Sequence record: OQ870555.1
Source of the DNA: Escherichia phage PECP14
Reading direction: 5' to 3' (one strand)
DNA: 64,000 nucleotides
Position numbers and translations under genes: made by a program
Notes under the pieces: generated by a model
Database searches by the model: none
The model's input: the letters and a program-made list of their open reading frames with translations, nothing else
What the model was told of the DNA's origin: nothing
In this document: positions 20,147-57,754 of the stretch, one piece after another
Layout of the letters: each line of letters starts with the position of its first letter
Numbering within the stretch: the first letter of the stretch is position 1

Positions 20147-20914
20147 TTATTCAGCAGCCGCAGCTTTTGCATCCAGTTTAGCACGCTTAGCGGCACCATC
20201 ATAGTCCTTAGCAACCAGACCACGACGAGACAGCATAGATTTAACACCGCGCTCAGACTTACCAGTTTTCTCAGCGATCTCAGCAACAGTCATGTTAGCC
20301 AGATCCAGACCTTCTAACAGATCTTCACGAGTTTTAGCACTTGAAGTTTCCTGTACCGGCATAGCAGCGATACGACCTTCACGAAGCAGACTCAGAGCTT
20401 TACCACGGATCTGCTTAATATTGCGACCGAAGTGAGCAGCGATAGCTTCAATAGTAGCACCAGCAACAACCTGATTAACGAAATCAGTTTCTTCGTCAGG
20501 AGTGAAGGAACGAACAGCAGCAGCTTTTTCGGTTGGCTTAACAGAAGCAGTCATTTCCAGACTCAGGATCTTACCCTGTACCTGCTTAGCACCGAACTGA
20601 CCACCAGCTACAGCAGCAGCGATTTCAGCGTAAGTATACTGACCAGCATGAGCGTTCAGGAAATCAACCAGTTCAGCTTCCTGCTCAGGAGTCCACGGGG
20701 ATTTCTGTACTTCGTTTGCTTTCTGTACTTCGAAACCTTCTTTACGCAGCTTAGAGCCAACAGAGCGAGCGGTAACGTCTTTGCCAGTCTCGGTAGCCAA
20801 TTCAGCAGCGATAGCAGCTACTTGTTCTTGAGAGATTACAGCAACACCCAGAGCAGTGGCTTTTGCTTTCAGAGACTCGGTTACACCTTCTACGTTCCAG
20901 TTCAGTTTAGACAT
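20147..20914 (-). CDS. DNA-binding protein with four tandem helix-turn-helix-like repeats
   Basis: 255 aa; about 60-aa units each containing ..(T/Y)..AEIA..G.......G...S..G... ; strong RBS GGAGAAAAATAATAATG. Confidence 0.55.
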   Translation of the reverse strand: MSKLNWNVEGVTESLKAKATALGVAVISQEQVAAIAAELATETGKDVTARSVGSKLRKEGFEVQKANEVQKSPWTPEQEAELVDFLNAHAGQYTYAEIAAAVAGGQFGAKQVQGKILSLEMTASVKPTEKAAAVRSFTPDEETDFVNQVVAGATIEAIAAHFGRNIKQIRGKALSLLREGRIAAMPVQETSSAKTREDLLEGLDLANMTVAEIAEKTGKSERGVKSMLSRRGLVAKDYDGAAKRAKLDAKAAAAE

Positions 20915-21686
20915 TATTATTTTTCTCCAATAGTTCTTTAATCGACAGGATTTCTATCCCATTCGTTTCGGCTTTCTTATAAGATGAGGAAGAACGTTTT
21001 GATTCATCCTCACAGATTAGGTATTTGACGTCTTTGGTAACGGACTTCTTAACCGTATATCCTAGACTTTCTAAATAGTTTGTTGCATCCGTTCGATTTG
21101 CAAAATCTTGCAAAGATCCGGTAATACAGACCGTGATTCCATTTGGCTGGGTAACTAAATCATCTGTAATGATGATATCCGCTTTAGCACCTCGAATACC
21201 TGTTGAGAATTTCCACGGTAATTCAATAACATCCTTGCCTTGTGGGGAATTTAGCCAGGTTTTGTAATTTTCTCCAGCCTTGCCGTCAGCCTTCACATCG
21301 TGGAAGCTAGTGCAATTTTGGGACAGTTTCTTTGCTGCAACCTCTCCAATAAGAGGAATTCCTAAAGAACCGAGAACTGAACCAAAGTCAGTGTCTCCGC
21401 GAACCTTAGTATTTAACTCGCTAATCAATTTAGCGGCAACCTTGCTACCCACAGCTCCGACCAAATCTTCTTCGGTCAGGTAAAACAGTTCTGAGATCTT
21501 AGTCAGCTCCAGCTTCTCAATAGTTTTCGGGCCAAAGCCCTTTAACTTCATTTTTGTGCAGAAGTTCTCGATTAACTTACTTGATTGCGCTGGACAGTTG
21601 GACTTATTCCTACAGAATAATTGCCCGTTGACAAGATCTAGCTTAGAACCACAAGAGGGACATTGTGTTGGAATTTCGATTTTCAT
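20907..21686 (-). CDS. NAD-dependent DNA ligase, C-terminal subunit (Zn finger, HhH, BRCT-like)
   Basis: 259 aa from ATG at 21686; C4 zinc motif CPSCGSKL...C..C; complements the adenylation subunit upstream. Confidence 0.8.
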   Translation of the reverse strand: MKIEIPTQCPSCGSKLDLVNGQLFCRNKSNCPAQSSKLIENFCTKMKLKGFGPKTIEKLELTKISELFYLTEEDLVGAVGSKVAAKLISELNTKVRGDTDFGSVLGSLGIPLIGEVAAKKLSQNCTSFHDVKADGKAGENYKTWLNSPQGKDVIELPWKFSTGIRGAKADIIITDDLVTQPNGITVCITGSLQDFANRTDATNYLESLGYTVKKSVTKDVKYLICEDESKRSSSSYKKAETNGIEILSIKELLEKNNNV

Positions 21687-21716
21687 CAAATTTCTTCCTT
21701 ATCAATTTATATAAAT

Positions 21717-21888: not shown

Positions 21889-22860
21889 TTAGTCGTATAC
21901 TCGCTCTACTATACAAGGGATTACACCACCAGCACGAATCACTCGAATCTGGCAACCGATCTCTAAATCGAGAGCGTTAATATAATCAACGTTATTAAGA
22001 GTTGCTTTAACGATTGTGGCATCATCAATAATCACCGGCTCGAAATAACCAACTGGAGTTACTTTACCAGAAGCCCCTACTTGCCATTCAACTTTAACAA
22101 GTGTGGTAATTTCGCCTTCTTCATCCTCTTTAATAGCAAATGCGCCACGAGGAAATTTATTAGTCCAACCTTCACGGAAGAATTTGTTGTTATCATTAAT
22201 ACGAACAACTTTACCATCTGTCGGAATCCATTTAAAGAAGGAACGAACATTAACAACTGTCAAGAAGTTCTCATTCTCTAGCCAAAGCATATCTTTTAAA
22301 TAGGCTTCTGTAATACCGACTGTTTCCGCTGAACACTGGATACCATATGCAACGAAGATTAAACCACCTTCACCAATACGTTGGATGAAATCATCGCTGT
22401 CTTTCAGGTTAATAGCACCTGAAGCGTAGTTACGTTTGTTCTCTACTTCTTTAGTAATGAGAACTTCACCAGTGATTTGAGTTGGAACTTTTTGGGAAAT
22501 AGTTTTAGGGATGTTCAGCATTTTAACATTATGCGTTACATCATTCCCTAGAATACCGTTACCACGAGTTAACGCTTGAACAAATTCACCATTAATATAT
22601 AATAGAGAAATCGCACAACCATCTAACTTATCAGTTTCAACCTGACCTAATGGATTGAATGGAGCTTTATCACCGCGACCGTAATAGACTTTCTGCAAAG
22701 AATACATACGATACAAATGAGGAATATCACCTTTCGGTCCGATTTCTTCCTCCAGTGGGAATCTTTTAATCAGACGATCATATTCTTCATCGGAAATAAG
22801 ACTCATTCCCTGGTAGTACGCTTCTTGACAACGTTTGATAAAGTCTTTTACATTATTCAT
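21889..22860 (-). CDS. NAD-dependent DNA ligase, N-terminal adenylation subunit
   Basis: 323 aa; adenylation lysine motif KLDG (VETDKLDGCAISLLY); OB-fold region. Confidence 0.8.
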   Translation of the reverse strand: MNNVKDFIKRCQEAYYQGMSLISDEEYDRLIKRFPLEEEIGPKGDIPHLYRMYSLQKVYYGRGDKAPFNPLGQVETDKLDGCAISLLYINGEFVQALTRGNGILGNDVTHNVKMLNIPKTISQKVPTQITGEVLITKEVENKRNYASGAINLKDSDDFIQRIGEGGLIFVAYGIQCSAETVGITEAYLKDMLWLENENFLTVVNVRSFFKWIPTDGKVVRINDNNKFFREGWTNKFPRGAFAIKEDEEGEITTLVKVEWQVGASGKVTPVGYFEPVIIDDATIVKATLNNVDYINALDLEIGCQIRVIRAGGVIPCIVERVYD

Positions 22861-30507: not shown

Positions 30508-30670
30508 ATTCTCCCTCCTTAATAAGGAACTCTTTCCATTCTGCTGTATCCTCATAGATAACGCAGAAATCATCACTCTTCCATGAGAAGTCATCAGTAG
30601 CAAATTCGAAACGGTAGCACCAACTACCGTCTGGCCATACTAAAAGATCACACATGCTTTTCTGGGACAT
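30488..30670 (-). CDS. hypothetical small acidic protein
   Basis: Start moved to ATG at 30670 with RBS GGAGGG inside the end of the Sir2-like gene. Confidence 0.4.
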   Translation of the reverse strand: MSQKSMCDLLVWPDGSWCYRFEFATDDFSWKSDDFCVIYEDTAEWKEFLIKEGEYGEEDF

Positions 30671-31499
30671 AAATATTTCCCTCCATAAAAGCTTCAACTT
30701 GATCAATAAAGTGTTTATTACCAAAAACTTCGGCAGCTCCAGCACGCCATACAGTAACACCACGTTTCTCATACTCAAGCTGTTCGTCATAACGAACTTG
30801 TGGGTTAACAACCATCATCTTAGTTCCACGACATACAGCAGGAAATAGCTCCCAGTTGAAGTCGATTACTTGGTTGCTACAACCTACTACAATAACCATA
30901 TCATTGCTAGTAAGTGTATCAAACAGGTTAATCTGACCCATATACCACGGAGCCGTCTCACCAAAGAATGTTACGTTTGGTTTTACCCATTCGTAATCCT
31001 CAGGGGCAATCGCAGTATACCCAACATCTTCGATGATTTGGTTGCGACCCTGACGATAGATCACCTCTTTCAAGTACCCGTGAGCGTGAATGATTTCATC
31101 ACGAGGGATACCAGCACGTTCCAGAAGGTCATCAACGTTAGTAGTGAAGTTCTTCACGCTATCCTCACCATAACGCTGGAACCATTCTGCAATTCGCAGA
31201 TGGGCAATGTTAGGCTCAACAGTCTGTAATTCCTGACGACGCATGTTGTAGAACTCATGAGTCTTGAGATACAGATCGTTACCATCTTTATCAATGCCAG
31301 GGAAACGAGCACTGAAGTAGTTAGGATCATCTTCACCACAGAAGCGACGGAAGCCAGCTTCAAAGTTAGGCAAGCTACATACTTCCTCTAGATCGTACTC
31401 ATCCCACAAGGATTTCCCACTAGCAGTATCAGTACGGAAAGCACGAACACCACTATCTACACTCAAACCTGCACCACTAACAACGATTAGTCTACGCAT
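30648..31499 (-). CDS. Sir2-family (sirtuin-like) NAD-binding protein
   Basis: 283 aa; N-terminus VVSGAGLSVDSGVRAFR matches the sirtuin GAG(I/L)S..SGI..FR motif; later TTNVDDL...HG resembles the NID/HG block; no Zn-Cys cluster seen. Confidence 0.7.
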   Translation of the reverse strand: MRRLIVVSGAGLSVDSGVRAFRTDTASGKSLWDEYDLEEVCSLPNFEAGFRRFCGEDDPNYFSARFPGIDKDGNDLYLKTHEFYNMRRQELQTVEPNIAHLRIAEWFQRYGEDSVKNFTTNVDDLLERAGIPRDEIIHAHGYLKEVIYRQGRNQIIEDVGYTAIAPEDYEWVKPNVTFFGETAPWYMGQINLFDTLTSNDMVIVVGCSNQVIDFNWELFPAVCRGTKMMVVNPQVRYDEQLEYEKRGVTVWRAGAAEVFGNKHFIDQVEAFMEGNIYVPEKHV

Positions 31500-48057: not shown

Positions 48058-48132
48058 CGGGGTGTAGTCTAAGGGATAGGCAGGAGTCTTCTAAATTCCT
48101 TTATGCAGGTTCGAATCCTGTCACCTCGGCCA
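48058..48132 (+). tRNA. tRNA-Arg (anticodon UCU)
   Basis: Hand-folded: acceptor CGGGGTG/CACCTCG, anticodon arm GGAGT-CTTCTAA-ATTCC, T-arm GCAGG-TTCGAAT-CCTGT, encoded CCA. Confidence 0.75.
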
Positions 48133-48158
48133 ATTTTATTAACTGCTAGGAAAATAAA

Positions 48159-48359
48159 GTGAAAACACGATATATAGTAAAAGTAGTAGGTGAACATTCA
48201 CAAGTAAATACCACCGATGTTACAGCGCTAGCATTTGAAGTAGTCTCCGGTATAGTCATATTTCATAACGGAGATATCAAAGCTCCTGAATTTGCTGTGG
48301 ATGCTAGCCTGTTTATTTCTGCAACTAAAGTAACTGTAGTAGCTAACTCTTCTAAATAA
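48159..48359 (+). CDS. hypothetical small beta-rich protein upstream of the SPFH gene (GTG start)
   Basis: 66 aa ORF ending 11 nt before the SPFH gene. Confidence 0.45.
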   Translation: MKTRYIVKVVGEHSQVNTTDVTALAFEVVSGIVIFHNGDIKAPEFAVDASLFISATKVTVVANSSK

Positions 48360-48370
48360 TAAGGAAATAT

Positions 48371-49315
48371 ATGTTTACTAAAAACACTAAAGAACTGACT
48401 TCCGATCAAAAAGTAATTCGTACTATTAAACGTTGGGGTGTTGGTGCTGTAGTTGGTCTTGGCGCTCTTATTCTGGCTCTCAATTCCTATACAGTTGTTC
48501 AGGACGGTACGGTTAAAACTCAGACTTTCCTGGGTAAAGTTAGTCCTAATCCTGTATTGCCGGGGTTCCATATTGTCAACCCATTCGCCTCTTTTGATAC
48601 TTTTAGTACGAAAGATATTTCTATGAAACTGGATAAACTTCAGGTTCCTAGCCAGGATAAGTTTAAGTCTACAGTTGACATTACCGTTATGTTGCAGTTT
48701 GATGGTGCTAAAGCTCCTATGAACCGTGTTAACGCAGGTACTCAGGATCAAGCTCTGAACAAGTACGTTGAAGAGAAGATGCTGTCTACGATTCGTGAGT
48801 TTGGTAAGTCTGTACCAAAAGCACAAGATCTGTTCGACGCTAAGATTCAGGCTCAACTGCAAACCGCTATTCAGCAAGAAGTAGAAGAGTATGCGCGTCC
48901 TTATGGTTACACCGTTAAGCAAGTATTCCTTCAGGATATTACTCTGCCACCGGTAATCATGGAACAGGTACAGAACACCAAAGTTCGTGAAGAACAAGTT
49001 AACGCTGCAAAAGCTGAACTGGCTCGTGTTGAACAAGAAGCACAGCAGAAAGTTAAGCAAGCTGAGGCAGATCGTTCCGCTCGTGAAAACATGGCAGTAG
49101 CTAACGAACGTGACGCAGATGCTAAACTGTACGCAGCTAAGAAAGAAGCTGAAGCTAACGCCGCTCTGCAACGTACCATTACTCCTGAAATGATTCGTTG
49201 GAAGCAGCTGGAAGTTGAAATGCTTCGTGCTGAAAAATACCAAGGGGGTGTACCACAGACTGTTGTCGGTACTGGCTACGATGGTCAAATGATCATGGAT
49301 ATGCGTAACAAGTAA
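48371..49315 (+). CDS. SPFH/band-7 (stomatin/prohibitin-like) membrane protein
   Basis: 314 aa; N-terminal TM helix (WGVGAVVGLGALILAL), SPFH body, C-terminal Ala/Glu/Gln-rich coiled coil; RBS AAGGAAAT. Confidence 0.75.
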   Translation: MFTKNTKELTSDQKVIRTIKRWGVGAVVGLGALILALNSYTVVQDGTVKTQTFLGKVSPNPVLPGFHIVNPFASFDTFSTKDISMKLDKLQVPSQDKFKSTVDITVMLQFDGAKAPMNRVNAGTQDQALNKYVEEKMLSTIREFGKSVPKAQDLFDAKIQAQLQTAIQQEVEEYARPYGYTVKQVFLQDITLPPVIMEQVQNTKVREEQVNAAKAELARVEQEAQQKVKQAEADRSARENMAVANERDADAKLYAAKKEAEANAALQRTITPEMIRWKQLEVEMLRAEKYQGGVPQTVVGTGYDGQMIMDMRNK

Positions 49316-49338
49316 TAGTTACACGTAATCTTCGAACC

Positions 49339-49375
49339 AAGCCCGCGTTTCCTTCGAGAGCGCGGGCTTTTCTGT
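49339..49375 (+). terminator. rho-independent terminator after the SPFH gene
   Basis: AAGCCCGCG-(13-nt loop)-CGCGGGCTT followed by TTCTGTATTT. Confidence 0.7.
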
Positions 49376-49385
49376 ATTTAAGGCA

Positions 49386-49430
49386 AAAGAAAAAGCCCCT
49401 TACCTTTCGGCAGGGGCTTTTGTTTTTTGG
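49386..49430. terminator. bidirectional terminator between convergent plus- and minus-strand genes
   Basis: AAAAAGCCCCT-(loop)-AGGGGCTTTTGTTTTTT, A-run upstream and T-run downstream. Confidence 0.7.
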
Positions 49431-49635
49431 TTTAGAACCATACTCTCTTGTTACAACAACCACTCATACGGGAGACCAATCTTGACTGAAAATCTACTCT
49501 AGGGGGCAGGATAAGAGTAGGCTTAAAGGCAAACGGATTGAACACCGGTATTTGTGTAAACATTGCTGGAGAGCAACAACGTGCTACAGGTATTGGGCAG
49601 CACGAAACAGATTTTCTGCAACACATAATTCCTCC

Positions 49636-50052
49636 TTAGGAGTTATTACCGCCATTTTGAGCTTTTGCAACTTGGCTTTGGCAGAAGCTATTAAACTTAC
49701 CCATAAGTGCTACAAGCTGTTTCCCATCCTCTGTCTTTGCGAAGTCTTCGAAAAGGGCTAGTACTGCCTGTCCTTCCGCAGAAACCTGCGGTTGTTGGGT
49801 TTGTTGCTGAACTTGCTGCTGAGGCACCTGTTGCTGCATTTGTTGAGGCATTTGCGACTGCCCGCTCATTTGCTGCATCATTTGCATAGGACTCACACTT
49901 CCAGGGTTTTGCTGGAGTTGCTGCTGCATCTGTTGCGCTTCTGCTAAACGCTGTTGCAACTGTTGTAGGTAAGGGTTATCCAGACCCGGAATGGGCTGCT
50001 GAGAGCCCATTGGTTGATTAAATCCGTTGTTCACAAAACCATATTTACTCAT
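49636..50052 (-). CDS. Gln-rich low-complexity protein
   Basis: 138 aa, about 35 percent Gln; RBS GGGGAGGAG before the ATG. Confidence 0.5.
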   Translation of the reverse strand: MSKYGFVNNGFNQPMGSQQPIPGLDNPYLQQLQQRLAEAQQMQQQLQQNPGSVSPMQMMQQMSGQSQMPQQMQQQVPQQQVQQQTQQPQVSAEGQAVLALFEDFAKTEDGKQLVALMGKFNSFCQSQVAKAQNGGNNS

Positions 50053-50074
50053 AATGGGCTCCTCCCCTTAAAGA

Positions 50075-51076
50075 TTAGGCTGGTACTTTAGCCTGTAGAG
50101 CTGCTAGAGTCTGAGTAATTGCACCCAGGCTTACAGCGATTTGATTGATTACCTGACCGTTTGCACCGCTACCTGCAGCGATTGCTTCACGCAGACGGCA
50201 TTCATTCAGTTCGTCTTGGATACGCGCAGTAGTTACACCAGCAATCGCAGTCTGAAGTTCGCAGCAGCACTCAGCAAGCTGACGTTCGATAGCGTTCTGG
50301 TTAGCACACATCTGAGCCTGAACAGCGGCAAACTGGTTGTTAGTCTGAAGAGACTGCTGGAAAGCAATCTGGGCAGAGTCAAACTTGTCTTGTGCACGAG
50401 CGATCTGGTTAGCAGCGAAAGCTTGATCCATCTGGCGAGAAAGATCGAACTGACCCTGAATAACGTTACGAGTTTCCTGACAGATCTGGTTGGACAGGTT
50501 AGCACCAGTACCATACACAGTAGTCAGAATCTGTTGAGTGCTAGAAGCTTGAGCAGCACCTACACCATTAACAGCGCTCAGAACAGCACCAGTACCTTGA
50601 TTCGCTTCGGTACGAGCAGTGTTGATTGCAGCTAGAATACTTGCAGTATCCTGGTTAGATAGGATAGCATCCACAGCAGTTCCCTCAGCGGCAACACCAG
50701 CACCACGTCCGAAACCACCGAAACCACCGAATCCGCCTGTTAATAGAGCACCAATCAGGATAGCTCCGAATAGACCCATACCTTCACCGCCGAAAGCACC
50801 ATTTGCTACTGCTGGGTAACCACCCATCAGACCTGGGAAGCCGCTAGTGAATACGTTTACTGGTTCTTGCATTTTATGTTTCCTATGTTTATGACAGCCC
50901 TCATGGTCGTCATCTTCATCATCTTCATCGTCATCATCGTGATCACGATGTTTCTTTTCGTAGGCCTTGACCTTCTCCCACTTATGTTTGTCTGATTCCT
51001 CATGACGTCTCAGTTCTGCTGCGACTTCACTGACGGTCTCAGGTTTCTTAGTTGCTTCTTCTGTCATTTTTGACAC
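50075..51076 (-). CDS. acidic His/Asp-rich protein with glycine-zipper membrane segment and Gln/Ala-rich C-terminal region
   Basis: 333 aa; HRDHDDDDEDDEDDDHEGCHKHRKHK; LFGAILIGALLTGGFGGFGGFG; C-terminal ECCCELQ and CRLRE; RBS AGGAGGTG. Confidence 0.55.
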   Translation of the reverse strand: MSKMTEEATKKPETVSEVAAELRRHEESDKHKWEKVKAYEKKHRDHDDDDEDDEDDDHEGCHKHRKHKMQEPVNVFTSGFPGLMGGYPAVANGAFGGEGMGLFGAILIGALLTGGFGGFGGFGRGAGVAAEGTAVDAILSNQDTASILAAINTARTEANQGTGAVLSAVNGVGAAQASSTQQILTTVYGTGANLSNQICQETRNVIQGQFDLSRQMDQAFAANQIARAQDKFDSAQIAFQQSLQTNNQFAAVQAQMCANQNAIERQLAECCCELQTAIAGVTTARIQDELNECRLREAIAAGSGANGQVINQIAVSLGAITQTLAALQAKVPA

Positions 51077-51273
51077 CTCCTAGTATATAGAAAATGTGTG
51101 TCTCTTTGATCACTCATCTATAACATATACTTTACACTACCCCAGCGAAAATGTCAAGGGGTCTTTAAAAATTGCCCCCGGATTTTTAGTGGGATAACAA
51201 TTTCTGGACCTCACCACTCACCTGCTACCCTTAAGTGCCCTGCGATTTTCCACTAAAAAGTTTAAAAATTCGA

Positions 51274-51302
51274 TTGCTTGAATGCTAAATTCTCTGTATA
51301 AT
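51274..51302 (+). promoter_or_regulatory. early promoter module upstream of the NadR-like gene
   Basis: TTGCTT-17 nt-TATAAT, then ..ATAAATTTGAGAGAGGAATCAAAT-ATG. Confidence 0.65.
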
Positions 51303-51332
51303 ATATTTATAAATTTGAGAGAGGAATCAAAT

Positions 51333-52388
51333 ATGATTAAGACTGGTCTAGTAATTGGTAAGTTCGCACCATTAACGCGTGGTCATATTAACCTAATAAA
51401 CACAGCAGCAACTATGTGTGAACGAGTTATTGTTGTAGTTAGTCATGATAATCGTTGGCTGGATAAGCAGAACACACGTGATCAGGAAGTATTACAGTTA
51501 AAGAATCGACTTCGTTGGTTAGAACAAACTTACGCGGATATTGAGCACGTTTCGGTAGAGTACATTATTGAAGATGATATTCCTGAATATCCGAATGGTT
51601 GGCCGGAATATGCTAGAATCCTTAATGAAAATTATGGACATTTGCCTGAGATCACCATTTTCTCTAGCGAACTAGACTATGATGCAGAATATAAGAAATA
51701 TCTGCCGAAGTTTGGTCATTATATTGTAGATTCTGATCGGACTCGTGTTCCAATCTCAGCTACAATGATTCGTAATGATCTTATGAAGTATTGGGAGTTT
51801 CTTCCTAGCGTAGTTCGTAAAGATTACGTGCGTAAGGTTGTAATCATTGGGACTGAAAGCTCAGGCAAAACAACTTTAACAAAGTACCTTGCGAAATTAT
51901 ATAATACTTCGTGGGTAGAAGAATATGGTCGTACTTACTGCGAAGTTGATCTAGTTGGTAATGAAGAACTCCTGACTAGCGAGGACTATAATAAAATTGC
52001 ATTCAGGCACAAAGAGCTAGAGTTTGAGGCAGAACGTACTGCAAATAAGATCATGTTTGTAGACACAAATGCTTTCATTACAGAGTTTTATCACAGACTT
52101 TACGAGCATCGTAAAAATCCGGTTGTAACAGCTATTGCTAAAGAAGAGCATTATGATTTAGTTATAGTTTTAGCACCTACTGTTAAGTGGGTAGATGATG
52201 GTTTACGTATTAACTCCGATCGTTCAATTACTTCTGAACTGTTCGAGCAGATGAAGAAAGAATTTCCTAATCAGTTTCCAGAAGGGCGTACTGTATATAT
52301 TGACTCCCCGGACTATAAGGTTCGTATGGACGAAGCAGTAAACGCAGTAGACTGGCTGATTCATCACTTTAACGTTGGAGAGTTTTAA
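51333..52388 (+). CDS. nadR: bifunctional NMN adenylyltransferase / ribosylnicotinamide kinase (NadR-type)
   Basis: N-terminus GLVIGKFAPLTRGHINLI (nucleotidyltransferase H-x-G-H); central P-loop VVIIGTESSGKTTL (kinase); ATG at 51333. Confidence 0.8.
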   Translation: MIKTGLVIGKFAPLTRGHINLINTAATMCERVIVVVSHDNRWLDKQNTRDQEVLQLKNRLRWLEQTYADIEHVSVEYIIEDDIPEYPNGWPEYARILNENYGHLPEITIFSSELDYDAEYKKYLPKFGHYIVDSDRTRVPISATMIRNDLMKYWEFLPSVVRKDYVRKVVIIGTESSGKTTLTKYLAKLYNTSWVEEYGRTYCEVDLVGNEELLTSEDYNKIAFRHKELEFEAERTANKIMFVDTNAFITEFYHRLYEHRKNPVVTAIAKEEHYDLVIVLAPTVKWVDDGLRINSDRSITSELFEQMKKEFPNQFPEGRTVYIDSPDYKVRMDEAVNAVDWLIHHFNVGEF

Positions 52389-52389
52389 T

Positions 52390-53067
52390 ATGACTAACTA
52401 TCTTGTAAATGACTTTAAAAACTGGAAACCTTTGGAATATCTGTGGCTGTTTATAGCAGTCGCCTTTATTAGTTTAGCTAACTATAATGGTACAGCTCTA
52501 GATTGGGCTACTGCAATAACCAACGTGGTTTGTGTTATTCTGGTTGCAAAAGGACGTGTTTCCAACTATATTTGGGGCTTAGTTGGTGTTCTTACCTATG
52601 GTATTACAGCTTTAAACGCAGATCTTTATGGTAACGCTGCACTAAACCTGCTATACTACGTTCCTATGCAGTTTTATGGAATGTACTTATGGCATAAAAA
52701 TAAGCCAAGTAATCTGCCAGATGTTCCAACTAAGGTTCTGACTAAAGCCCAAGCTCTGCTGACTCTAGGGATTCTAGCAGTAGCCACGTTAGGGTATGGT
52801 AGTTTCTTAGCTACTACGGCTGATCCATTCCCAATGTTGGATGCATTTACTGCGGTAGGTAGTGTGATCGCTATGTGGCTTATGGTTAAGCAGTATGCCG
52901 AGCAGTGGCTGATCTGGATTGCTATTAACATTGGTACTGTATATATTTGGCTTGTAACTGCCCAGTCTACGGGTGCTTCTTATGCAATCCTAGCAATGTG
53001 GCTGGTGTTCTTAGGTAACTCTATTATGGGAGCCTATAAAGGCTACTTTGTAAGAGTTAACAAATAA
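52390..53067 (+). CDS. pnuC: nicotinamide riboside transporter (PnuC-like)
   Basis: About 225 aa with multiple TM helices and a WxxxxP-type region; start overlaps the nadR stop (TAATATG). Confidence 0.7.
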   Translation: MTNYLVNDFKNWKPLEYLWLFIAVAFISLANYNGTALDWATAITNVVCVILVAKGRVSNYIWGLVGVLTYGITALNADLYGNAALNLLYYVPMQFYGMYLWHKNKPSNLPDVPTKVLTKAQALLTLGILAVATLGYGSFLATTADPFPMLDAFTAVGSVIAMWLMVKQYAEQWLIWIAINIGTVYIWLVTAQSTGASYAILAMWLVFLGNSIMGAYKGYFVRVNK

Positions 53068-53074
53068 AGTAGTT

Positions 53075-53100
53075 ATAGCCCTCTAAGCGAGGGCTATTAT
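53075..53100 (+). terminator. rho-independent terminator after pnuC
   Basis: ATAGCCCTC-TAAGC-GAGGGCTAT followed by TATAC. Confidence 0.65.
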
Positions 53101-53114
53101 ACAGAAATTTTCAC

Positions 53115-53143
53115 TTGCTTTATATAGAAAATTTCTGTATAAT
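53115..53143 (+). promoter_or_regulatory. early promoter module
   Basis: TTGCTT-17 nt-TATAAT, then ..ATAAATTTGAGAGAGGAATCAAAC-ATG. Confidence 0.65.
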
Positions 53144-53173
53144 ATATTTATAAATTTGAGAGAGGAATCAAAC

Positions 53174-53470
53174 ATGAAACACATTGTACTTGCATTGACT
53201 CTAGTATCTACTTCTGTATTTGCTGCTCCACAACAGGAACTTTGTCAAGTTCAAGTTTGTAATAAGCTAGAACGATTTACTCTAGACATTTGGTCGCACA
53301 TTAAAGATAATATGGGTGAACAGTGTTTTGATATTGTTCTGCCAAAAGAACAAGCTGTTCCTGGGGCTGTTCTCAGCTCAGAATCACGTTGGTGGCAGGG
53401 TTCTTCTATCAACCCAACTAAGAAGTCAGTGACACGTATCAAACAAGTATATCAGTGCAATGTTCAGTAA
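53174..53470 (+). CDS. secreted small protein with signal peptide
   Basis: ATG at 53174; MKHIVLALTLVSTSVFAAPQQ signal peptide, several Cys. Confidence 0.5.
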   Translation: MKHIVLALTLVSTSVFAAPQQELCQVQVCNKLERFTLDIWSHIKDNMGEQCFDIVLPKEQAVPGAVLSSESRWWQGSSINPTKKSVTRIKQVYQCNVQ

Positions 53471-53478
53471 AATTTCAC

Positions 53479-53507
53479 TTGCTTAATGCCGAAATTTTCT
53501 GTATAAT
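53479..53507 (+). promoter_or_regulatory. early promoter module upstream of the tRNA-Ser/tRNA-Met pair
   Basis: TTGCTT (53479-53484), 17-nt spacer, TATAAT (53502-53507). Confidence 0.65.
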
Positions 53508-53521
53508 ATATTCATAAATTC

Positions 53522-53615
53522 GGAAGATTAACCCTAAAGGTAAGGGAGCTGTTTGCTAAACAGCCAGTAGCTGTGGAGACACGGTGTGCCAGTTCGAATC
53601 TGGCATCTTCCTCCA
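53522..53615 (+). tRNA. tRNA-Ser (anticodon GCU), class II
   Basis: Acceptor GGAAGAT/ATCTTCC, anticodon arm GCTGT-TTGCTAA-ACAGC, long variable arm, T-arm GCCAG-TTCGAAT-CTGGC, CCA. Confidence 0.75.
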
Positions 53616-53620
53616 AATTT

Positions 53621-53698
53621 GGTTCTCAAGCTCATTTGGTATGAGCCGTCGCCTCATAAGCGAAAGGTAGGTAGGTTCGAATCCTCCGGGAGCCACCA
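53621..53698 (+). tRNA. tRNA with CAU anticodon (Met, fMet or Ile-lysidine), copy 1
   Basis: Acceptor GGTTCTC/GGGAGCC with G-U pairs, loop CTCATAA, T-arm GTAGG-TTCGAAT-CCTCC (one mismatch). Confidence 0.7.
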
Positions 53699-53715
53699 AT
53701 TAACTAGGAGACTAT

Positions 53716-53901
53716 ATGTCTAGATTCTATGAAATGAAGAAAGCATTAGAAGAATGTCGGTGTAAGGATTGTCATGGTGGTGGTAGGCAGGATGATGCAG
53801 AACCTGGGGATATTTTCTGTAGAGAATGGGAATGTCCTACATGTAAAGGTACTGGTATCAACCCTGAATATGCAATTTGTCTAGACATTGAGCGAGGCTA
53901 A
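53716..53901 (+). CDS. hypothetical small Cys-rich protein (possible zinc ribbon)
   Basis: 61 aa; CRCKDCHGG...CPTCKG. Confidence 0.5.
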   Translation: MSRFYEMKKALEECRCKDCHGGGRQDDAEPGDIFCREWECPTCKGTGINPEYAICLDIERG

Positions 53902-54241
53902 GATGGATATTTTTACTACTCCGGCAATAAACCTTTTAGGTGTTGGCTTGTTCCAAGCTACGGTGTATCGTACTGATGATTCTACTGATGTGGTAACGTT
54001 CATCGTACCTGAGTTCTTCCTAGAAAAGTTCTTTGAAGAGTTTGAGCAGTTCCGTGAAGAACACAATGCTCATTCCGATATGGAAGATCTAGCAGCTATG
54101 TTCCCTGTGGTTTACGGCTATATCTTTGAAGGTAATGGCCTAGATCTTAATAAATCTGAACTCGTTGAACTTAATTGGGGCATCAATTTTGAAGTTGGCT
54201 CTCCATTCCCTCGATATTTCCAGGGTTTAGAGATTCGCTAA
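53888..54241 (+). CDS. hypothetical protein
   Basis: 117 aa ORF overlapping the upstream gene by 14 nt. Confidence 0.5.
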   Translation: MSEAKMDIFTTPAINLLGVGLFQATVYRTDDSTDVVTFIVPEFFLEKFFEEFEQFREEHNAHSDMEDLAAMFPVVYGYIFEGNGLDLNKSELVELNWGINFEVGSPFPRYFQGLEIR

Positions 54242-54249
54242 GATTACAT

Positions 54250-54326
54250 GGGGGTGTAATCGAATTGGCATAGGTACTGGACTTAAAATTCAGGTTTTGT
54301 GGGTTCGAATCCCACCACCCCTACCA
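54250..54326 (+). tRNA. tRNA, anticodon loop CUUAAAA (UAA, Leu-type) with short variable arm; isotype uncertain
   Basis: Acceptor GGGGGTG/CACCCCT, anticodon stem CTGGA/TTCAG, T-arm GTGGG-TTCGAAT-CCCAC, CCA; D-arm folds poorly by hand. Confidence 0.5.
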
Positions 54327-54477
54327 AATTAAGGAAATAAAATGAAAGCTATTAAGAAAGCACTACGTAAATTTATGTACTGTCGTTTTCATAGCATCAA
54401 GACTTCAACTAATGGTACGACTTATGATCGCTATGATCCTAAGTTTGGCTTACATTCTAAATAACTGGAGATAATAA

Positions 54478-54684
54478 ATGGCTAATCCTGAAATTACTGC
54501 ACAGCGCTTTATGCTGAAAGGTATTATTGCTGAAGCAGGCATGACAGAAGAAGTTGCAGATTTTCAAAAGCAGTTCCTAAATATTCTCACTCAAGCCAAA
54601 GAGCTAGGAGAGAAAGAACATGGCGCGGCTATTATGGCAATCACATTGGTTGGGCTTGATCTGGCAGAAGAATCAGGAGTTTAA
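54478..54684 (+). CDS. hypothetical protein
   Basis: 68 aa ORF with RBS GGAGATAATAA. Confidence 0.45.
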   Translation: MANPEITAQRFMLKGIIAEAGMTEEVADFQKQFLNILTQAKELGEKEHGAAIMAITLVGLDLAEESGV

Positions 54685-54714
54685 CTCCTCCAAGCAGAAA
54701 TTTTAAAAATGTAC

Positions 54715-54744
54715 TTGCTTTTTACTTAAGATTTCTGCTATAAT
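54715..54744 (+). promoter_or_regulatory. early promoter module
   Basis: TTGCTT-18 nt-TATAAT, then ..ATAAATTGATGAAGGAGTTAACGA-ATG. Confidence 0.6.
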
Positions 54745-54774
54745 AGTTATATAAATTGATGAAGGAGTTAACGA

Positions 54775-55050
54775 ATGTCAAAACGTGTTACTGCAACTGG
54801 TGTTGAAAGTGCTGTTTGTAAATCCTGGGGTGGCTGGGAAGGTGAGATTGAATGGCTTTATTTCTACGATGTAGAACTTCTGCCGGAAGTCAAAGCTAAA
54901 TGTGTGGAAGCTGGTATGGCTCCTGATGCAAAGGCTGATATCGAAATCACCATGACTAAGCTAGAAGGTCGTGTAATTACGCTCAATGATGATTATGAAG
55001 AAGTGTTCGAGCTTCCATTCAAACTGAGTGTCACCCCTAGCTTCGAGTAA
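54775..55050 (+). CDS. hypothetical protein
   Basis: 91 aa ORF with RBS GAAGGAG. Confidence 0.5.
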   Translation: MSKRVTATGVESAVCKSWGGWEGEIEWLYFYDVELLPEVKAKCVEAGMAPDAKADIEITMTKLEGRVITLNDDYEEVFELPFKLSVTPSFE

Positions 55051-55086
55051 CTGATATAGCACTGAGCAAGTTCTTTAAAATTTGAC

Positions 55087-55115
55087 TTGCTCAGTCCTTC
55101 AAAACTTGATATAAT
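55087..55115 (+). promoter_or_regulatory. early promoter upstream of a four-tRNA cluster
   Basis: TTGACTTGCTC...TGATATAAT; -35 read as TTGCTC, 17-nt spacer. Confidence 0.6.
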
Positions 55116-55179
55116 AGTTATCTAATTTGGAAAACATATTTAAAAGTGTTTAAACTAGTATTTGAATATTTCTAAATAT

Positions 55180-55270
55180 GTTGGATTAGTATCGTAGAGG
55201 TAGCGAAGCAGACTGTAAATCTGCCGACTCGGAAGGGTCTCGGGTGGTTCGACTCCATCATCCAACACCA
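55180..55270 (+). tRNA. tRNA-Tyr (anticodon GUA), class II
   Basis: Acceptor GTTGGAT/ATCCAAC, anticodon arm GCAGA-CTGTAAA-TCTGC, long variable arm, T-loop TTCGACT, CCA. Confidence 0.75.
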
Positions 55271-55277
55271 AATTTAA

Positions 55278-55354
55278 GTCCTGTTAGACAAACTGGTAAA
55301 GTCACTACCCTTTCAAGGTAGGATTTGCGGGTTCGATCCCCGCACAGGACGCCA
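55278..55354 (+). tRNA. tRNA-Glu (anticodon UUC)
   Basis: Acceptor GTCCTGT/ACAGGAC, anticodon arm CTACC-CTTTCAA-GGTAG, T-arm GCGGG-TTCGATC-CCCGC, CCA. Confidence 0.8.
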
Positions 55355-55362
55355 AATTCTGC

Positions 55363-55439
55363 ATTCCTAGAGTGTTACTGGACAGCATGTCGGTCTCCAA
55401 AACCGTACGGTCTAGGTTCGAGTCCTAGTAGGTTTGCCA
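55363..55439 (+). tRNA. tRNA-Trp-like (anticodon CCA) with imperfect acceptor stem; possible pseudo-tRNA
   Basis: Loop CTCCAAA, T-arm CTAGG-TTCGAGT-CCTAG, encoded CCA, but the best acceptor pairing carries two U-U mismatches. Confidence 0.4.
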
Positions 55440-55445
55440 ATATTT

Positions 55446-55520
55446 GCACCTTTAGCTGAGATGGATTAGCGCTTGCCTGAAGAGCTTGAGAGGTTGGATC
55501 GTTACCAACGGGGTGCACCA
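55446..55520 (+). tRNA. tRNA-Phe-like (anticodon GAA) with atypical stems
   Basis: Acceptor GCACCTT/GGGGTGC, D-stem GCTG/TAGC, loop CTGAAGA, unusual T-loop ATCGTTA, CCA; anticodon stem has two mismatches. Confidence 0.45.
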
Positions 55521-55537
55521 ATTTGAAGGAGATGCTG

Positions 55538-55810
55538 ATGCATCCTGAAAACTTCTTTATTTACTGTGCGGATAAGTCACTGAAACGCAGAATTAACAAA
55601 GTCTATCATTATCGTGCTAGTCAACAGCCTTATGTTTATGCTTTTGATGGAGAAACCATTCCACTAGAGCAGTTGGCTTGTGATTACATGGTATTGAAGA
55701 ACTTTGATGAGACAAAGATCTCAAGCGTTCATAATCGACAGAACCCATTAACGTGGAAGTATAAGAAGAAAAAGAAAGGCATCATATTTCTGAAAAATGT
55801 AGTTGCTTAA
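55538..55810 (+). CDS. hypothetical protein
   Basis: Track ORF starts at a TTG at 55523; ATG at 55538 follows RBS GAAGGAG. Confidence 0.5.
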   Translation: MHPENFFIYCADKSLKRRINKVYHYRASQQPYVYAFDGETIPLEQLACDYMVLKNFDETKISSVHNRQNPLTWKYKKKKKGIIFLKNVVA

Positions 55811-55831
55811 CCGCTTAAAGTTCTGTATAAT
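55803..55831 (+). promoter_or_regulatory. early promoter module
   Basis: TTGCTT-17 nt-TATAAT; overlaps the stop of the upstream gene. Confidence 0.65.
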
Positions 55832-55860
55832 TATTACATAAATTGAACTGGAGAAGCAAC

Positions 55861-56085
55861 ATGACAGAACAAGAATTGAAAGAACGTAAGCTGGTAATGC
55901 TTCGCTTACTAAACATTTTCTCTGGTATGGATGGTGGTATTGACTTCGTTAATCTACGTTGCTTTGTAGAAGAAGCAGAAGGTGAGGCTATCACTAGGAT
56001 TCTTAAACATATGGGTTTGTTATTAGATGTTGCTAATGTGGCTACTCAATATAAGCTCGAAGATTTACCGGAGCGTGTTAAATGA
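55861..56085 (+). CDS. hypothetical protein
   Basis: ATG at 55861 (MTEQELKERK) with RBS GGAGAAGC. Confidence 0.5.
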   Translation: MTEQELKERKLVMLRLLNIFSGMDGGIDFVNLRCFVEEAEGEAITRILKHMGLLLDVANVATQYKLEDLPERVK

Positions 56086-56273
56086 AAATGTTAGTTAAAT
56101 TTAAGTGTTGTGGTTCTGAACATATTTTCACTCGTTATAGAGAGTTTAAGATGTGTGAGTGTGGTAAGTCAGGCTATGATGCTGGAGATGGCTATTATGC
56201 TAGATCTATAGGACATTATAAAGATCTAGAGTTTACTAATCTCGAAAAGCAAGATAAATCGACCGTTGGCTGA
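56082..56273 (+). CDS. hypothetical small protein, possible zinc ribbon
   Basis: 63 aa; CCGSEH...CECG; 3' end overlaps the tRNA-Cys 5' end. Confidence 0.45.
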   Translation: MKMLVKFKCCGSEHIFTRYREFKMCECGKSGYDAGDGYYARSIGHYKDLEFTNLEKQDKSTVG

Positions 56274-56335
56274 ATGGCTTAGGCGGAGGCCTGCAAAACC
56301 TCCTTATGTGAGTTCGAATCTCATGCGGTCGTCCA
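56260..56335 (+). tRNA. tRNA-Cys (anticodon GCA)
   Basis: Acceptor CGACCGT/GCGGTCG, loop CTGCAAA, T-arm GTGAG-TTCGAAT-CTCAT, CCA. Confidence 0.65.
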
Positions 56336-56342
56336 AATTTTA

Positions 56343-56425
56343 GGGTCGTTAGCCAAGCGGTTTGGCGGTGGACTGTTAATCCATGTCGAAAGACAACGTA
56401 GGTTCGAATCCTACACGGCCCGCCA
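56343..56425 (+). tRNA. tRNA-Asn (anticodon GUU) with an unusually long (about 13 nt) variable region
   Basis: Acceptor GGGTCGT/ACGGCCC, D-stem GCCA/TGGC, anticodon arm GTGGA-CTGTTAA-TCCAT, variable GTCGAAAGACAAC (mini-hairpin), T-arm GTAGG-TTCGAAT-CCTAC, CCA. Confidence 0.65.
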
Positions 56426-56528
56426 TATTCTGTGTAGAGTTAAGTAAACCGGTAGCCAACCAGCTATCATTACTGATATCGAATTCAGTCACAGATACCA
56501 TTTTTCATTAACAACTGAGGAAATAGAT

Positions 56529-56714
56529 ATGACAACTCGTGCAATTGCTCGACTAGAAGCTGATCGTGATAATCTGATTAATAATATTAAGGTTCGTGGT
56601 AATATTATTAAGGCTCTGAAAGCTGAACTTCTTGAAGAACTTCAAGGTCAAGTAGAGCGTCGTGAAGCTCTAAAAGAGGTTGAGGAAGCTATCGAAAAAC
56701 TCAAAACTGAGTAA
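56529..56714 (+). CDS. hypothetical coiled-coil protein
   Basis: 61 aa ORF with RBS GAGGAAATAG. Confidence 0.45.
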   Translation: MTTRAIARLEADRDNLINNIKVRGNIIKALKAELLEELQGQVERREALKEVEEAIEKLKTE

Positions 56715-56723
56715 ATAAATTAT

Positions 56724-56800
56724 GCGATCGGGGCTGGCTTGGTAATGGTACTCCCCTGTCACGGGAGAGAATGTGGGTTCGAATCCCATCGGTCGCGCCA
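56724..56800 (+). tRNA. tRNA-Asp (anticodon GUC)
   Basis: Acceptor GCGATCG/CGGTCGC, anticodon arm CTCCC-CTGTCAC-GGGAG, T-arm GTGGG-TTCGAAT-CCCAT, CCA. Confidence 0.8.
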
Positions 56801-56814
56801 ATTTAGGCTATAGT

Positions 56815-57006
56815 ATGACACGCAAATATTTAGTTATTAAAGGTGAACATGCAGGACAAACTGTATACTCATTGAAATTTCATGATTATGGTTTAGCCTC
56901 AGATGATACTCGATATACTGGAATAGAGCATACAAGTGTAACATTAGACGAAACAGGTGATTATCCTAGTTTTACTATTCCTAAAGATTTCTTAAAAGAG
57001 ATTTAA
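56815..57006 (+). CDS. hypothetical protein
   Basis: Track ORF (from 56773) begins inside tRNA-Asp; ATG at 56815 (MTRKYLVIKG) preferred. Confidence 0.45.
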   Translation: MTRKYLVIKGEHAGQTVYSLKFHDYGLASDDTRYTGIEHTSVTLDETGDYPSFTIPKDFLKEI

Positions 57007-57007
57007 T

Positions 57008-57609: not shown

Positions 57610-57638
57610 TTGCTATTTAGCTTAATTCTCTGTATAAT
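57610..57638 (+). promoter_or_regulatory. early promoter module upstream of tRNA-Pro / tRNA-CAU
   Basis: TTGCTA-17 nt-TATAAT. Confidence 0.65.
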
Positions 57639-57748: not shown

Positions 57749-57754
57749 AACAAT

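What the first reader, a model, noticed from the sequence alone, without database searches (positions are those of the whole stretch)
51274..53100. Phage-encoded NAD+ salvage pair (NadR-type NMNAT/NR kinase plus PnuC transporter) alongside a NAD-dependent ligase and a Sir2-family protein
The 51333-52388 product has a nucleotidyltransferase motif (GKFAPLTRGHINLI) and a kinase P-loop (VVIIGTESSGKTTL), the NadR architecture. The overlapping next gene is a multi-TM PnuC-like transporter. Together they form a complete nicotinamide-riboside to NAD+ route under a strong early promoter. The same genome carries a split NAD-dependent DNA ligase (20907-22860) and a Sir2-family protein (30648-31499). It could supply the ligase or counter NAD+-depleting host defences; both are inference.
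Basis: partly seen in the sequence, partly recalled or inferred. Interest (0 to 1): 0.65.

Follow-up and report, generated by a model that had tools for sequence, protein, structure and literature searches.

The report
Phage NAD+ rebuilding operon (NARP3)
This T5-like phage carries a two-gene operon, a nicotinamide-riboside importer plus an enzyme that turns the riboside into NAD+. It is real and correctly read, but it is the same system published in 2026 as the anti-defence pathway "NARP3".

Summary
51333-52388 encodes a 351-aa NadR-type enzyme with an NMN adenylyltransferase domain, a ribosylnicotinamide kinase domain and no HTH. 52390-53067 encodes a 225-aa PnuC transporter. Upstream lies a promoter 73/75 identical to T5's annotated promoter P15a, and a stable hairpin follows. 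The window is an Epseptimavirus-like T5 relative.

The two proteins are 347/351 and 224/225 identical to Bas30_86 and Bas30_87 of Escherichia phage TrudiRoth. That pair was characterised biochemically, structurally (PDB 9X6H/9X6F) and genetically as NARP3 (Yan et al., Sci Adv 2026, PMC13464706). It imports nicotinamide riboside, converts it to NMN and then NAD+, and rescues phages from Sir2-HerA and DSR1. All 20 residues the paper names are conserved here.

The split NAD-dependent ligase and the Sir2-like gene are also real. T5 and Salmonella phage STWB21 keep both without the cassette, so the ligase does not need it.

Minor corrections: the genes do not overlap (1-nt gap), and the native-phage role remains untested.

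One small new point: the cassette is bounded by two copies of the promoter-leader, and two sibling phages have exactly one copy and no cassette.

Verdict: already known, low interest.

The parts
51254..51328 (+). Early promoter plus leader of the operon. -35 TTGCTT at 51274-51279, 17-nt spacer, -10 TATAAT at 51297-51302, A-rich upstream region, leader ATAAATTTGAGAGAGGAATC containing the Shine-Dalgarno sequence.
   Evidence: 73/75 nt identical to the promoter annotated P15a in T5 NC_005859. Same -10 and leader as T5 P-N25. Identical in phages Stitch and TrudiRoth apart from 2 nt. The generic scan missed it because the -35 matches TTGACA at only 3 of 6 positions.
51333..52388 (+). nadR-like gene, 351 aa: NMN adenylyltransferase domain (about 1-150) plus ribosylnicotinamide kinase P-loop domain (about 165-315). 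No N-terminal HTH.
   Evidence: NF005988 254.9 bits (cutoff 201), profile positions 65-407 of 411. PF01467 plus PF13521. 347/351 identical to PDB 9X6F/9X6H, which is Bas30_86. E 3.9e-55 to H. influenzae NadR 1LW7. All 17 residues named in the paper are conserved.
52390..53067 (+). pnuC, 225 aa: nicotinamide riboside transporter. The ATG lies 1 nt after the nadR stop codon, with its SD (GGAGAG) inside the end of nadR.
   Evidence: PF04973 148.3 bits and TIGR01528 121.2 bits. E 8.7e-33 to N. mucosa PnuC 4QTN. 224/225 identical to Bas30_87 and 100% identical to the phage EPS7 protein. N45, Q94 and N180 are conserved.
53075..53097 (+). GC-rich hairpin (9-bp stem, 5-nt loop) just after pnuC. Likely the operon terminator.
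   Evidence: Fold gives -17.1 kcal/mol, z -4.7. Annotated as a terminator at the same place in phage Stitch. It has no canonical T-run, so the scan did not call it.
53105..53177 (+). Second copy of the promoter-leader (82% identical over 73 nt; the last 35 nt before the start-codon region are identical). It drives the next gene, a 98-aa ORF at 53174-53470. Together with 51264-51336 it forms the direct repeat that bounds the cassette.
   Evidence: Repeat family D1. Exact 35-mer found twice. STWB21 and HMD-P2 have a single copy and no cassette.
21889..22860 (-). Context, not part of the operon: ligA, the adenylation plus OB half of a split NAD-dependent DNA ligase.
   Evidence: PF01653 and PF03120. 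95.7% identical to T5 ligA, T5.116. The sequence shows a domain-Ia-like YY..ISDEEYDRL and a KLDG motif.
20907..21689 (-). Context: ligB, the HhH plus BRCT half of the split ligase. The T5 annotation starts one codon later.
   Evidence: PF00533 and PF12826. 95.8% identical to T5 ligB, T5.117.
30648..31499 (-). Context: Sir2-family protein, CobB-like.
   Evidence: PF02146 77.9 bits. phrog_2162. Best PDB match is E. coli CobB 1S5P. No PADLOC match. 52% identical to T5.102.

Best explanation
This is an orthologue of the phage NARP3 operon.

How it works:
1. Early in infection, host RNA polymerase transcribes nadR-pnuC from a T5 P15a-type promoter.
2. PnuC inserts in the inner membrane and lets external nicotinamide riboside (NR) in.
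3. The kinase domain of the NadR-like enzyme phosphorylates NR to NMN with ATP.
4. Its adenylyltransferase domain joins NMN and ATP to give NAD+.

The net effect is to refill the NAD+ pool from an outside precursor. This lets the phage replicate in cells whose defence systems (Sir2-HerA, DSR1 and similar) have hydrolysed NAD+.

Basis of each step:
- Shown here: the gene anatomy, family membership, conserved residues, near-identity to the characterised proteins, and promoter homology.
- Taken from the literature on 99%-identical proteins: NR binding, both enzyme activities, NAD+ restoration, and rescue of T7, lambda and Klebsiella phages.
- Inferred: that the same happens during infection by this phage itself.
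For: - Family assignment comes from curated profiles and from PHROGs 3462 and 1880.
- NadR is 347/351 identical to Bas30_86, PDB 9X6H/9X6F. PnuC is 224/225 identical to Bas30_87.
- K10, F11, S37, E80, P84, G89, F110, S112, D115, V139, I141, K163, D164, R167, K168, E230 and D275 of the enzyme are at the same positions. So are N45, Q94 and N180 of the transporter. The paper's alanine-substitution mutants drew on 13 of these 20 residues, singly or in combination; K163, D164, R167 and K168 are named as NR/NMN-site residues only.
- Experimental results in PMC13464706:
  - NR Kd of 0.66 uM for the transporter and 34 nM for the enzyme.
  - NR to NMN to NAD+ shown by HPLC.
  - Both genes are needed for a 10^3-10^4-fold rescue against Sir2-HerA.
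  - Rescue depends on NR, with an EC50 of 3.6-5.6 uM.
- The promoter is 73/75 identical to T5 P15a, and a hairpin follows pnuC.
- The pair recurs widely in phages. NadR homologues occur in 791 of 50,697 phage records and PnuC in 779. In the metagenomic record MT836087 they lie side by side.
Against: - The native-phage role is untested. The paper itself states that NARP3 could not be examined in TrudiRoth.
- The cassette is dispensable for growth. T5 (first 100 kb, including the syntenic slot) and the whole genome of Epseptimavirus STWB21 lack it.
- The benefit depends on external NR at micromolar level. NADase products are nicotinamide and ADP-ribose, not NR, so this pathway imports rather than recycles.
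- TIGR01526 (nadR_NMN_Atrans) scores 272.6 bits, below its cutoff of 341.15, although NF005988 passes.
- E. coli already has its own pnuC and nadR.
Confidence: 0.88

Rival explanations
1. Housekeeping supply. The operon mainly keeps NAD+ available for the phage's own NAD+-consuming enzymes: the split LigA/LigB ligase, which releases NMN at each ligation, and the Sir2-like protein. On this reading, defence evasion is secondary.
For: - The same genome encodes ligA/ligB and a Sir2-family protein.
- NAD-dependent ligases convert NAD+ to AMP plus NMN (established biochemistry). NMN is a direct substrate of the NMNAT domain.
- The operon has an early promoter like those of the replication genes.
- The native role is untested.
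Against: - T5 keeps ligA/ligB at 96% identity and a Sir2 gene without the cassette. So does STWB21, from the same genus. These enzymes therefore work without it.
- Recycling ligase-derived NMN would not need a transporter or the kinase domain. Yet both PnuC and kinase-site residues were required in the published rescue assays.
Confidence: 0.15
2. Regulator. The NadR-like protein acts as a DNA-binding repressor of host NAD genes, as enterobacterial NadR does.
For: Some public records call it 'trifunctional NAD biosynthesis/regulator protein NadR' or 'DNA-dependent negative transcription regulator'.
Against: - The protein starts at the NMNAT domain. It aligns to positions 65-407 of the 411-position NadR profile.
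- No HTH family is found.
- The paper describes Bas30_86 as truncated, lacking the HTH.
Confidence: 0.01
3. Different cargo. The transporter imports a vitamin other than NR, since Pnu-family members also carry other vitamin precursors, and the pairing with NadR is incidental.
For: Pnu-family transporters are diverse (own knowledge). NF011926, the enteric PnuC subfamily model, scores only 67.8 bits against a cutoff of 335.
Against: - The TIGR01528 PnuC equivalog is passed almost threefold.
- The two genes are translationally coupled and adjacent.
- NR binding (Kd 0.66 uM) and NR-dependent rescue were measured for a protein differing at one residue.
Confidence: 0.02

Closest known systems
NARP3 (Bas30_86/Bas30_87 of Escherichia phage TrudiRoth; Yan et al., Sci Adv 2026, PMC13464706; PDB 9X6H, 9X6F)
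   Same: - Same two genes, order, spacing and promoter.
- 347/351 and 224/225 amino-acid identity.
- All residues the paper names are conserved.
- Same phage genus.
   Different: - Four substitutions in the enzyme (V73I, E212N, N220S, R258S) and one in the transporter (A25V). None is at a named site.
- The upstream neighbours differ. The window keeps the divergent T5.077/078-like genes that TrudiRoth lacks.
- The loop of the terminator hairpin is inverted between the two phages.
Haemophilus influenzae-type NR salvage (PnuC plus bifunctional NadR; NadR structure 1LW7; Neisseria mucosa PnuC 4QTN)
   Same: - Same pathway logic: NR import, then NR kinase, then NMN adenylyltransferase.
- Same domain order.
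- The ESSGK P-loop, the WVDDGLR segment and the EQW..W...N transporter motif are conserved.
   Different: - Distant in sequence (E 3.9e-55 and 8.7e-33).
- Phage-borne and fused into one early operon.
- Used, according to the literature, against immunity rather than for growth.
Enterobacterial trifunctional NadR (NCBIfam NF005988) and host PnuC
   Same: NMNAT and RNK domains. The protein passes the NF005988 cutoff.
   Different: - No HTH repressor domain (profile positions 1-64 are missing).
- The host genes are at separate loci.
- The phage PnuC fails the enteric PnuC subfamily model NF011926 (67.8 bits against 335).
NARP1 and NARP2 (Osterman et al. 2024, 10.1101/2024.02.11.579819)
   Same: Same outcome: the phage rebuilds NAD+ to survive NAD+-depleting defence. 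That paper had already pointed to the NadR-PnuC operon of BASEL T5-like phages as a likely third pathway.
   Different: - NARP1 starts from ADP-ribose and nicotinamide, and NARP2 from nicotinamide via NMN. Both recycle NADase products.
- This operon needs an external precursor and a transporter.

Membership tests
NadR family (bifunctional NMNAT / ribosylnicotinamide kinase) | Curated family profile passed | tested here: met
   NF005988 scores 254.9 bits against a cutoff of 201. The domain model TIGR01526 scores 272.6 bits, below its cutoff of 341.15.
NadR family (bifunctional NMNAT / ribosylnicotinamide kinase) | N-terminal nucleotidyltransferase domain with (H/T)xGH and ISxTxxR motifs | tested here: met
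   T15-R-G-H18 and I141-S-A-T-M-I-R147. PF01467 covers residues 7-147.
NadR family (bifunctional NMNAT / ribosylnicotinamide kinase) | C-terminal P-loop kinase domain (Walker A GxxxxGK[ST]) | tested here: met
   GTESSGKT at 173-180. PF13521 scores 110.9 bits. It aligns with GGESSGKS of 1LW7.
NadR family (bifunctional NMNAT / ribosylnicotinamide kinase) | N-terminal HTH DNA-binding domain (the trifunctional enterobacterial form only) | tested here: not met
   The alignment starts at profile position 65 of 411, and there is no HTH Pfam hit. The protein is therefore the bifunctional, non-regulatory form.
NadR family (bifunctional NMNAT / ribosylnicotinamide kinase) | NR kinase and NMN adenylyltransferase activity | not testable with these tools
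   Measured for Bas30_86, which is 347/351 identical.
PnuC nicotinamide riboside transporter family | Curated family profiles passed | tested here: met
   PF04973 scores 148.3 bits (cutoff 27.3). TIGR01528 scores 121.2 bits (cutoff 42.45). The enteric subfamily model NF011926 is not passed (67.8 against 335).
PnuC nicotinamide riboside transporter family | Polytopic membrane protein homologous to a solved PnuC | tested here: met
   E 8.7e-33 over residues 9-215 to 4QTN. Hydrophobic stretches span about residues 12-79 and 114-218. The helix count itself was not determined here.
PnuC nicotinamide riboside transporter family | NR-binding residues shown by mutagenesis in the phage protein (N45, Q94, N180) | tested here: met
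   All three are present at the same positions (definition).
NARP3 phage counter-defence operon | Adjacent, co-oriented nadR-like (HTH-less) and pnuC genes in a phage genome | tested here: met
   nadR at 51333-52388 and pnuC at 52390-53067, same strand, 1-nt gap. The window is a T5-like phage.
NARP3 phage counter-defence operon | Orthology to the type pair Bas30_86/87 | tested here: met
   99% identity for both proteins, with the same promoter.
NARP3 phage counter-defence operon | Restores NAD+ and rescues phage from NAD+-depleting defence | not testable with these tools
   Shown heterologously for Bas30_86/87. Not shown for any phage in its native context.
NARP1 / NARP2 | NARP1 is the two-gene operon of Osterman et al. 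that rebuilds NAD+ from ADP-ribose and nicotinamide; the 2026 paper names its enzymes ADPS and NAMAT. NARP2 uses NAMPT plus NMNAT. | not tested
   The operon itself contains neither. The rest of the window was not screened for these genes.

The most novel reading that the evidence does not exclude
Two readings remain open.

1. In its native T5-like phage the cassette may not act mainly as an anti-defence device. It could buffer NAD+ for the phage's own consumers (split ligase, Sir2-like protein) after host shut-off.

2. The cassette may be a module that T5-like phages gain and lose by recombination between repeated early promoter-leader sequences. That would make the variable slot downstream of P15a a general cargo site.

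The first is untested anywhere. The second rests on two empty-site genomes.
Probability: 0.2. Interest if true: 0.3.

Novelty: already known. Interest (0 to 1): 0.15.

Why it matters
NAD+ depletion is a common bacterial anti-phage strategy, and phage pathways that rebuild NAD+ decide who wins. This operon is one such pathway, but it has already been described in full, so the window adds only another member.

It adds two practical things:
- Natural cassette-less siblings (STWB21, HMD-P2) could serve for the native-context test that the published work could not do.
- Gain or loss of the cassette maps exactly to a repeated early promoter.

Tried and rejected
- **Promoter scan.** The generic scan did not list the operon promoter, because its -35 matches TTGACA at only 3 of 6 positions. 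I relied instead on 73/75 identity to T5's annotated P15a.
- **Terminator scan.** It did not list the hairpin after pnuC, which has no T-run. Folding shows it is stable.
- **Longer reading frames rejected.**
  - The ATG at 51282 for nadR lies inside the promoter, upstream of the -10.
Annotations and the published residue numbering fit the ATG at 52390.
- **Inverted repeat as a leftward promoter.** I considered reading 53095-53112 / 53127-53144 this way. I rejected it because its -35 would match at only 2 of 6 positions (read from the sequence).
- **PADLOC.** It gave nothing meaningful for NadR, PnuC or Sir2.
- **Literature search.** A search for 'T5-like' + nicotinamide + PnuC found nothing.
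- **Heavy searches not run.** I did not run the large protein-database searches, structure prediction or fold search. A crystal structure of a 99%-identical protein and a solved PnuC homologue already answer those questions.
Full report
**What is there**

Window 51274-53100 holds two co-oriented ORFs.

The first ORF, 51333-52388, gives a 351-aa protein.
- It carries the nucleotidyltransferase motifs T15-R-G-H18 and I141-SATMIR.
- It has a Walker A loop, GTESSGKT, at 173-180.
- Pfam assigns a cytidylyltransferase-like domain to residues 7-147 and an AAA_28 P-loop kinase domain to 168-314.
- NCBIfam's full-length NadR model NF005988 is passed (254.9 bits, cutoff 201). The alignment covers only profile positions 65-407 of 411, so the N-terminal HTH of enterobacterial NadR is absent.
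- The domain model TIGR01526 scores 272.6 bits, below its strict cutoff of 341.15.

The second ORF, from the ATG at 52390 to 53067, gives a 225-aa hydrophobic protein.
- It passes Pfam NMN_transporter (148.3 bits) and the PnuC equivalog TIGR01528 (121.2 bits, cutoff 42.45).
- It matches the solved Neisseria mucosa PnuC 4QTN at E 8.7e-33.

The nadR stop codon is at 52386-52388, so the two genes are separated by one base, and the pnuC Shine-Dalgarno sequence lies inside the end of nadR. Neither public annotations nor the published residue numbering use that start.

**Expression signals**

Upstream lies TTGCTT (51274-51279), a 17-nt spacer, then TATAAT (51297-51302), preceded by an A-rich stretch and followed by the leader ATAAATTTGAGAGAGGAATC.
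- This 75-nt block is 73/75 identical to the promoter annotated P15a in phage T5.
- It shares its -10 and leader with T5's P-N25, which also occurs in the window at 25309-25341 on the minus strand.
- That P-N25-type promoters are exceptionally strong is my own recollection of the classical T5 promoter literature.
- The generic consensus scan missed the site because the -35 matches TTGACA at only three positions.

After pnuC comes a 9-bp GC-rich hairpin at 53075-53097 (-17.1 kcal/mol, z -4.7). It is annotated as a terminator in phage Stitch.

A second, AU-rich hairpin follows. Its 3' arm is the spacer and -10 of the next promoter.

**What genome this is**

The region is 95-96% identical at nucleotide level to many Salmonella and Escherichia T5-like phages of the genus Epseptimavirus (Demerecviridae, Markadamsvirinae). 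Most of them annotate the two genes as nicotinamide-nucleotide adenylyltransferase and PnuC-like transporter. The PnuC protein is 100% identical to that of phage EPS7. PHROGs already has families for both genes. A block of 27 tRNA genes follows from 53522, as in T5.

**It is NARP3**

A search of solved structures returned 9X6F/9X6H at E 2.6e-239, with 347 of 351 residues identical. These entries are Bas30_86 of Escherichia phage TrudiRoth, from Yan et al., Sci Adv 2026 (PMC13464706). I fetched TrudiRoth (MZ501109).
- Bas30_86 is 347/351 identical to the window's enzyme, and Bas30_87 is 224/225 identical to its transporter.
- The promoter region is the same apart from two bases.

The paper names the pair NARP3 and reports the following.
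- Trimeric Bas30_87 binds NR (Kd 0.66 uM).
- Bas30_86 binds NR (34 nM) and NAD+ (56 nM).
- HPLC shows NR converted to NMN and then to NAD+.
- The paper presents crystal structures with and without NAD+.
- Co-expression of both genes, but neither alone, restores NAD+/NADH and rescues T7 and lambda 10^3-10^4-fold from Sir2-HerA. It also counters DSR1, and it rescues Klebsiella phages.
- Rescue is NR-dependent, with an EC50 of 3.6-5.6 uM.

Every residue the paper names is present at the same position in the window. In the enzyme these are K10, F11, S37, E80, P84, G89, F110, S112, D115, V139, I141, K163, D164, R167, K168, E230 and D275. In the transporter they are N45, Q94 and N180. Its alanine-substitution mutants drew on 13 of these 20.

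The idea was already in print earlier. Iyer et al. 2022 catalogued phage NadR (PMC9503650). Osterman et al. 2024 pointed to the NadR-PnuC operon of BASEL T5-like phages as a probable further NAD+ reconstitution pathway.

**Distribution**
- tblastn finds NadR homologues in 791 of 50,697 phage records. Of these, 206 are at 80% identity or more, which is the T5-like set.
- The rest are Vibrio phages such as ICP1, Bacillus Tsamsa-like phages, Enterococcus EFDG1-like phages, jumbo phages and Lak phages.
- PnuC homologues occur in 779 records with a similar host spread.
- In the metagenomic record MT836087 the two hits are adjacent. In sibling records of ICP1, Lak-A1 and a Vibrio phage series they fall at neighbouring coordinates.

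**The other NAD-related genes**

- ligA (21889-22860, minus strand) has the NAD-ligase adenylation and OB domains. It also has a YY..ISDEEYDRL N-terminus and a KLDG motif.
- ligB (20907-21689, minus strand) has HhH and BRCT domains.
- Both are about 96% identical to T5's annotated ligA and ligB. The split ligase is therefore a known T5 trait.
- The Sir2-family gene (30648-31499, minus strand) matches PF02146 and phrog_2162. It is closest to E. coli CobB among solved structures and has no PADLOC match.

**Does the operon exist to feed the ligase?**

T5 was searched over its first 100 kb, which includes the syntenic slot. It has ligA, ligB, Sir2 and the neighbouring HAD gene, but no nadR or pnuC.

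The complete genome of Salmonella phage STWB21, from the same genus as the window, also has ligA (85%), ligB (95%) and Sir2 (66%) but no nadR or pnuC.

So the phage's NAD+-consuming enzymes function without the cassette. Recycling of ligase-derived NMN would need neither a transporter nor the kinase domain, yet both were required in the published assays. The housekeeping reading is therefore secondary at best. It is not excluded as a contribution, because no one has tested the operon in its native phage.

**A small addition: cassette boundaries**

The promoter-leader occurs twice, at 51264-51336 and 53105-53177. The copies are 82% identical over 73 nt, and the 35 nt up to the start-codon region are identical. 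The second copy drives the next gene, a 98-aa ORF of unknown function.
- I built a query in which 51264-53104 was removed. It aligned in one ungapped piece over 100% of its length to STWB21 and HMD-P2.
- Alignments show that these phages have the left-type promoter fused directly to the 98-aa ORF.
- TrudiRoth's right-hand copy matches the empty-site junction, so a crossover anywhere in the shared ~47 nt would give exactly this product.
- T5 has a different gene, T5.076, behind P15a at the same place.

The simplest reading is that the slot behind this promoter is variable. The cassette would then be lost, or acquired, by recombination between repeated early promoter-leaders. This is inference from two empty sites.

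**Verdict**

The system is already known in detail, with proteins 99% identical to those here. What remains open is the phenotype in a native T5-like phage and the relative weight of counter-defence against housekeeping.

Noticed in passing
51264-51336 and 53105-53177; L002 (STWB21) 2300-2445; L003 (HMD-P2) 2300-2445: The nadR-pnuC cassette is bounded by two copies of the same early promoter-leader. Two Epseptimaviruses have a single copy and precisely no cassette. T5 carries a different gene (T5.076) in the same slot. This suggests gain or loss by recombination between promoter repeats, and it provides natural NARP3-less siblings.
   Followed up: yes
53075-53144: Two tandem hairpins follow pnuC. 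One is GC-rich (53075-53097). The other is an 18-nt perfect AU-rich inverted repeat (53095-53112 / 53127-53144) whose 3' arm is the spacer and -10 of the next promoter. The repeat is conserved in Stitch and TrudiRoth. Its role (terminator, or promoter occlusion) is unknown.
   Followed up: partly
53084-53088; L006 (TrudiRoth) about 7555-7560: The 5-nt loop of the terminator hairpin is reverse-complemented between phages (TAAGC here and in Stitch, GCTTA in TrudiRoth) while the stem is unchanged. This is a small hairpin-loop inversion.
   Followed up: no
30648-31499 (-) and 29829-30368 (-): The phage Sir2-like protein is CobB-like with GAGLS, TTNVD and HG motifs. It has no cysteines between the catalytic HG and FFGE, so apparently no zinc ribbon. 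It is only 52% identical to T5's Sir2 and 66% to STWB21's, although neighbouring genes are 87-96% identical. The adjacent gene is a HAD_SAK_2 ('Swiss Army Knife RNA repair') domain protein. Function unknown.
   Followed up: partly
50075-51076 (-) and 49636-50052 (-): These are divergently transcribed neighbours. The first is a 333-aa protein (phrog_8119, 77% identical to T5.077) with a His/Asp/Glu-rich N-terminus, a Gly-rich hydrophobic segment and a Q/A-rich tail. The second is a 138-aa Gln-rich protein that some records label 'cAMP-dependent protein kinase catalytic subunit', with no Pfam support. TrudiRoth lacks both.
   Followed up: no
53174-53470 (+): A 98-aa ORF with a signal-peptide-like N-terminus (MKHIVLALTLVSTSVFA) and four cysteines. 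It matches phrog_6894 (unknown function) and is driven by its own copy of the strong early promoter. It is retained in cassette-less STWB21 (97% identical) but not found in T5's first 50 kb.
   Followed up: partly
25309-25341 (-), 44363-44395 (+), 53469-53540 (+): Further copies of the T5 early promoter -10/leader motif. The first is the P-N25 equivalent. The third resembles T5 P15b and precedes the tRNA block. These repeated elements could be general recombination substrates in this phage family.
   Followed up: partly
48058-62698: 28 tRNA genes were predicted in the window, 27 of them in a block starting 55 nt after the 98-aa ORF. This is ordinary for T5-like phages.
   Followed up: no
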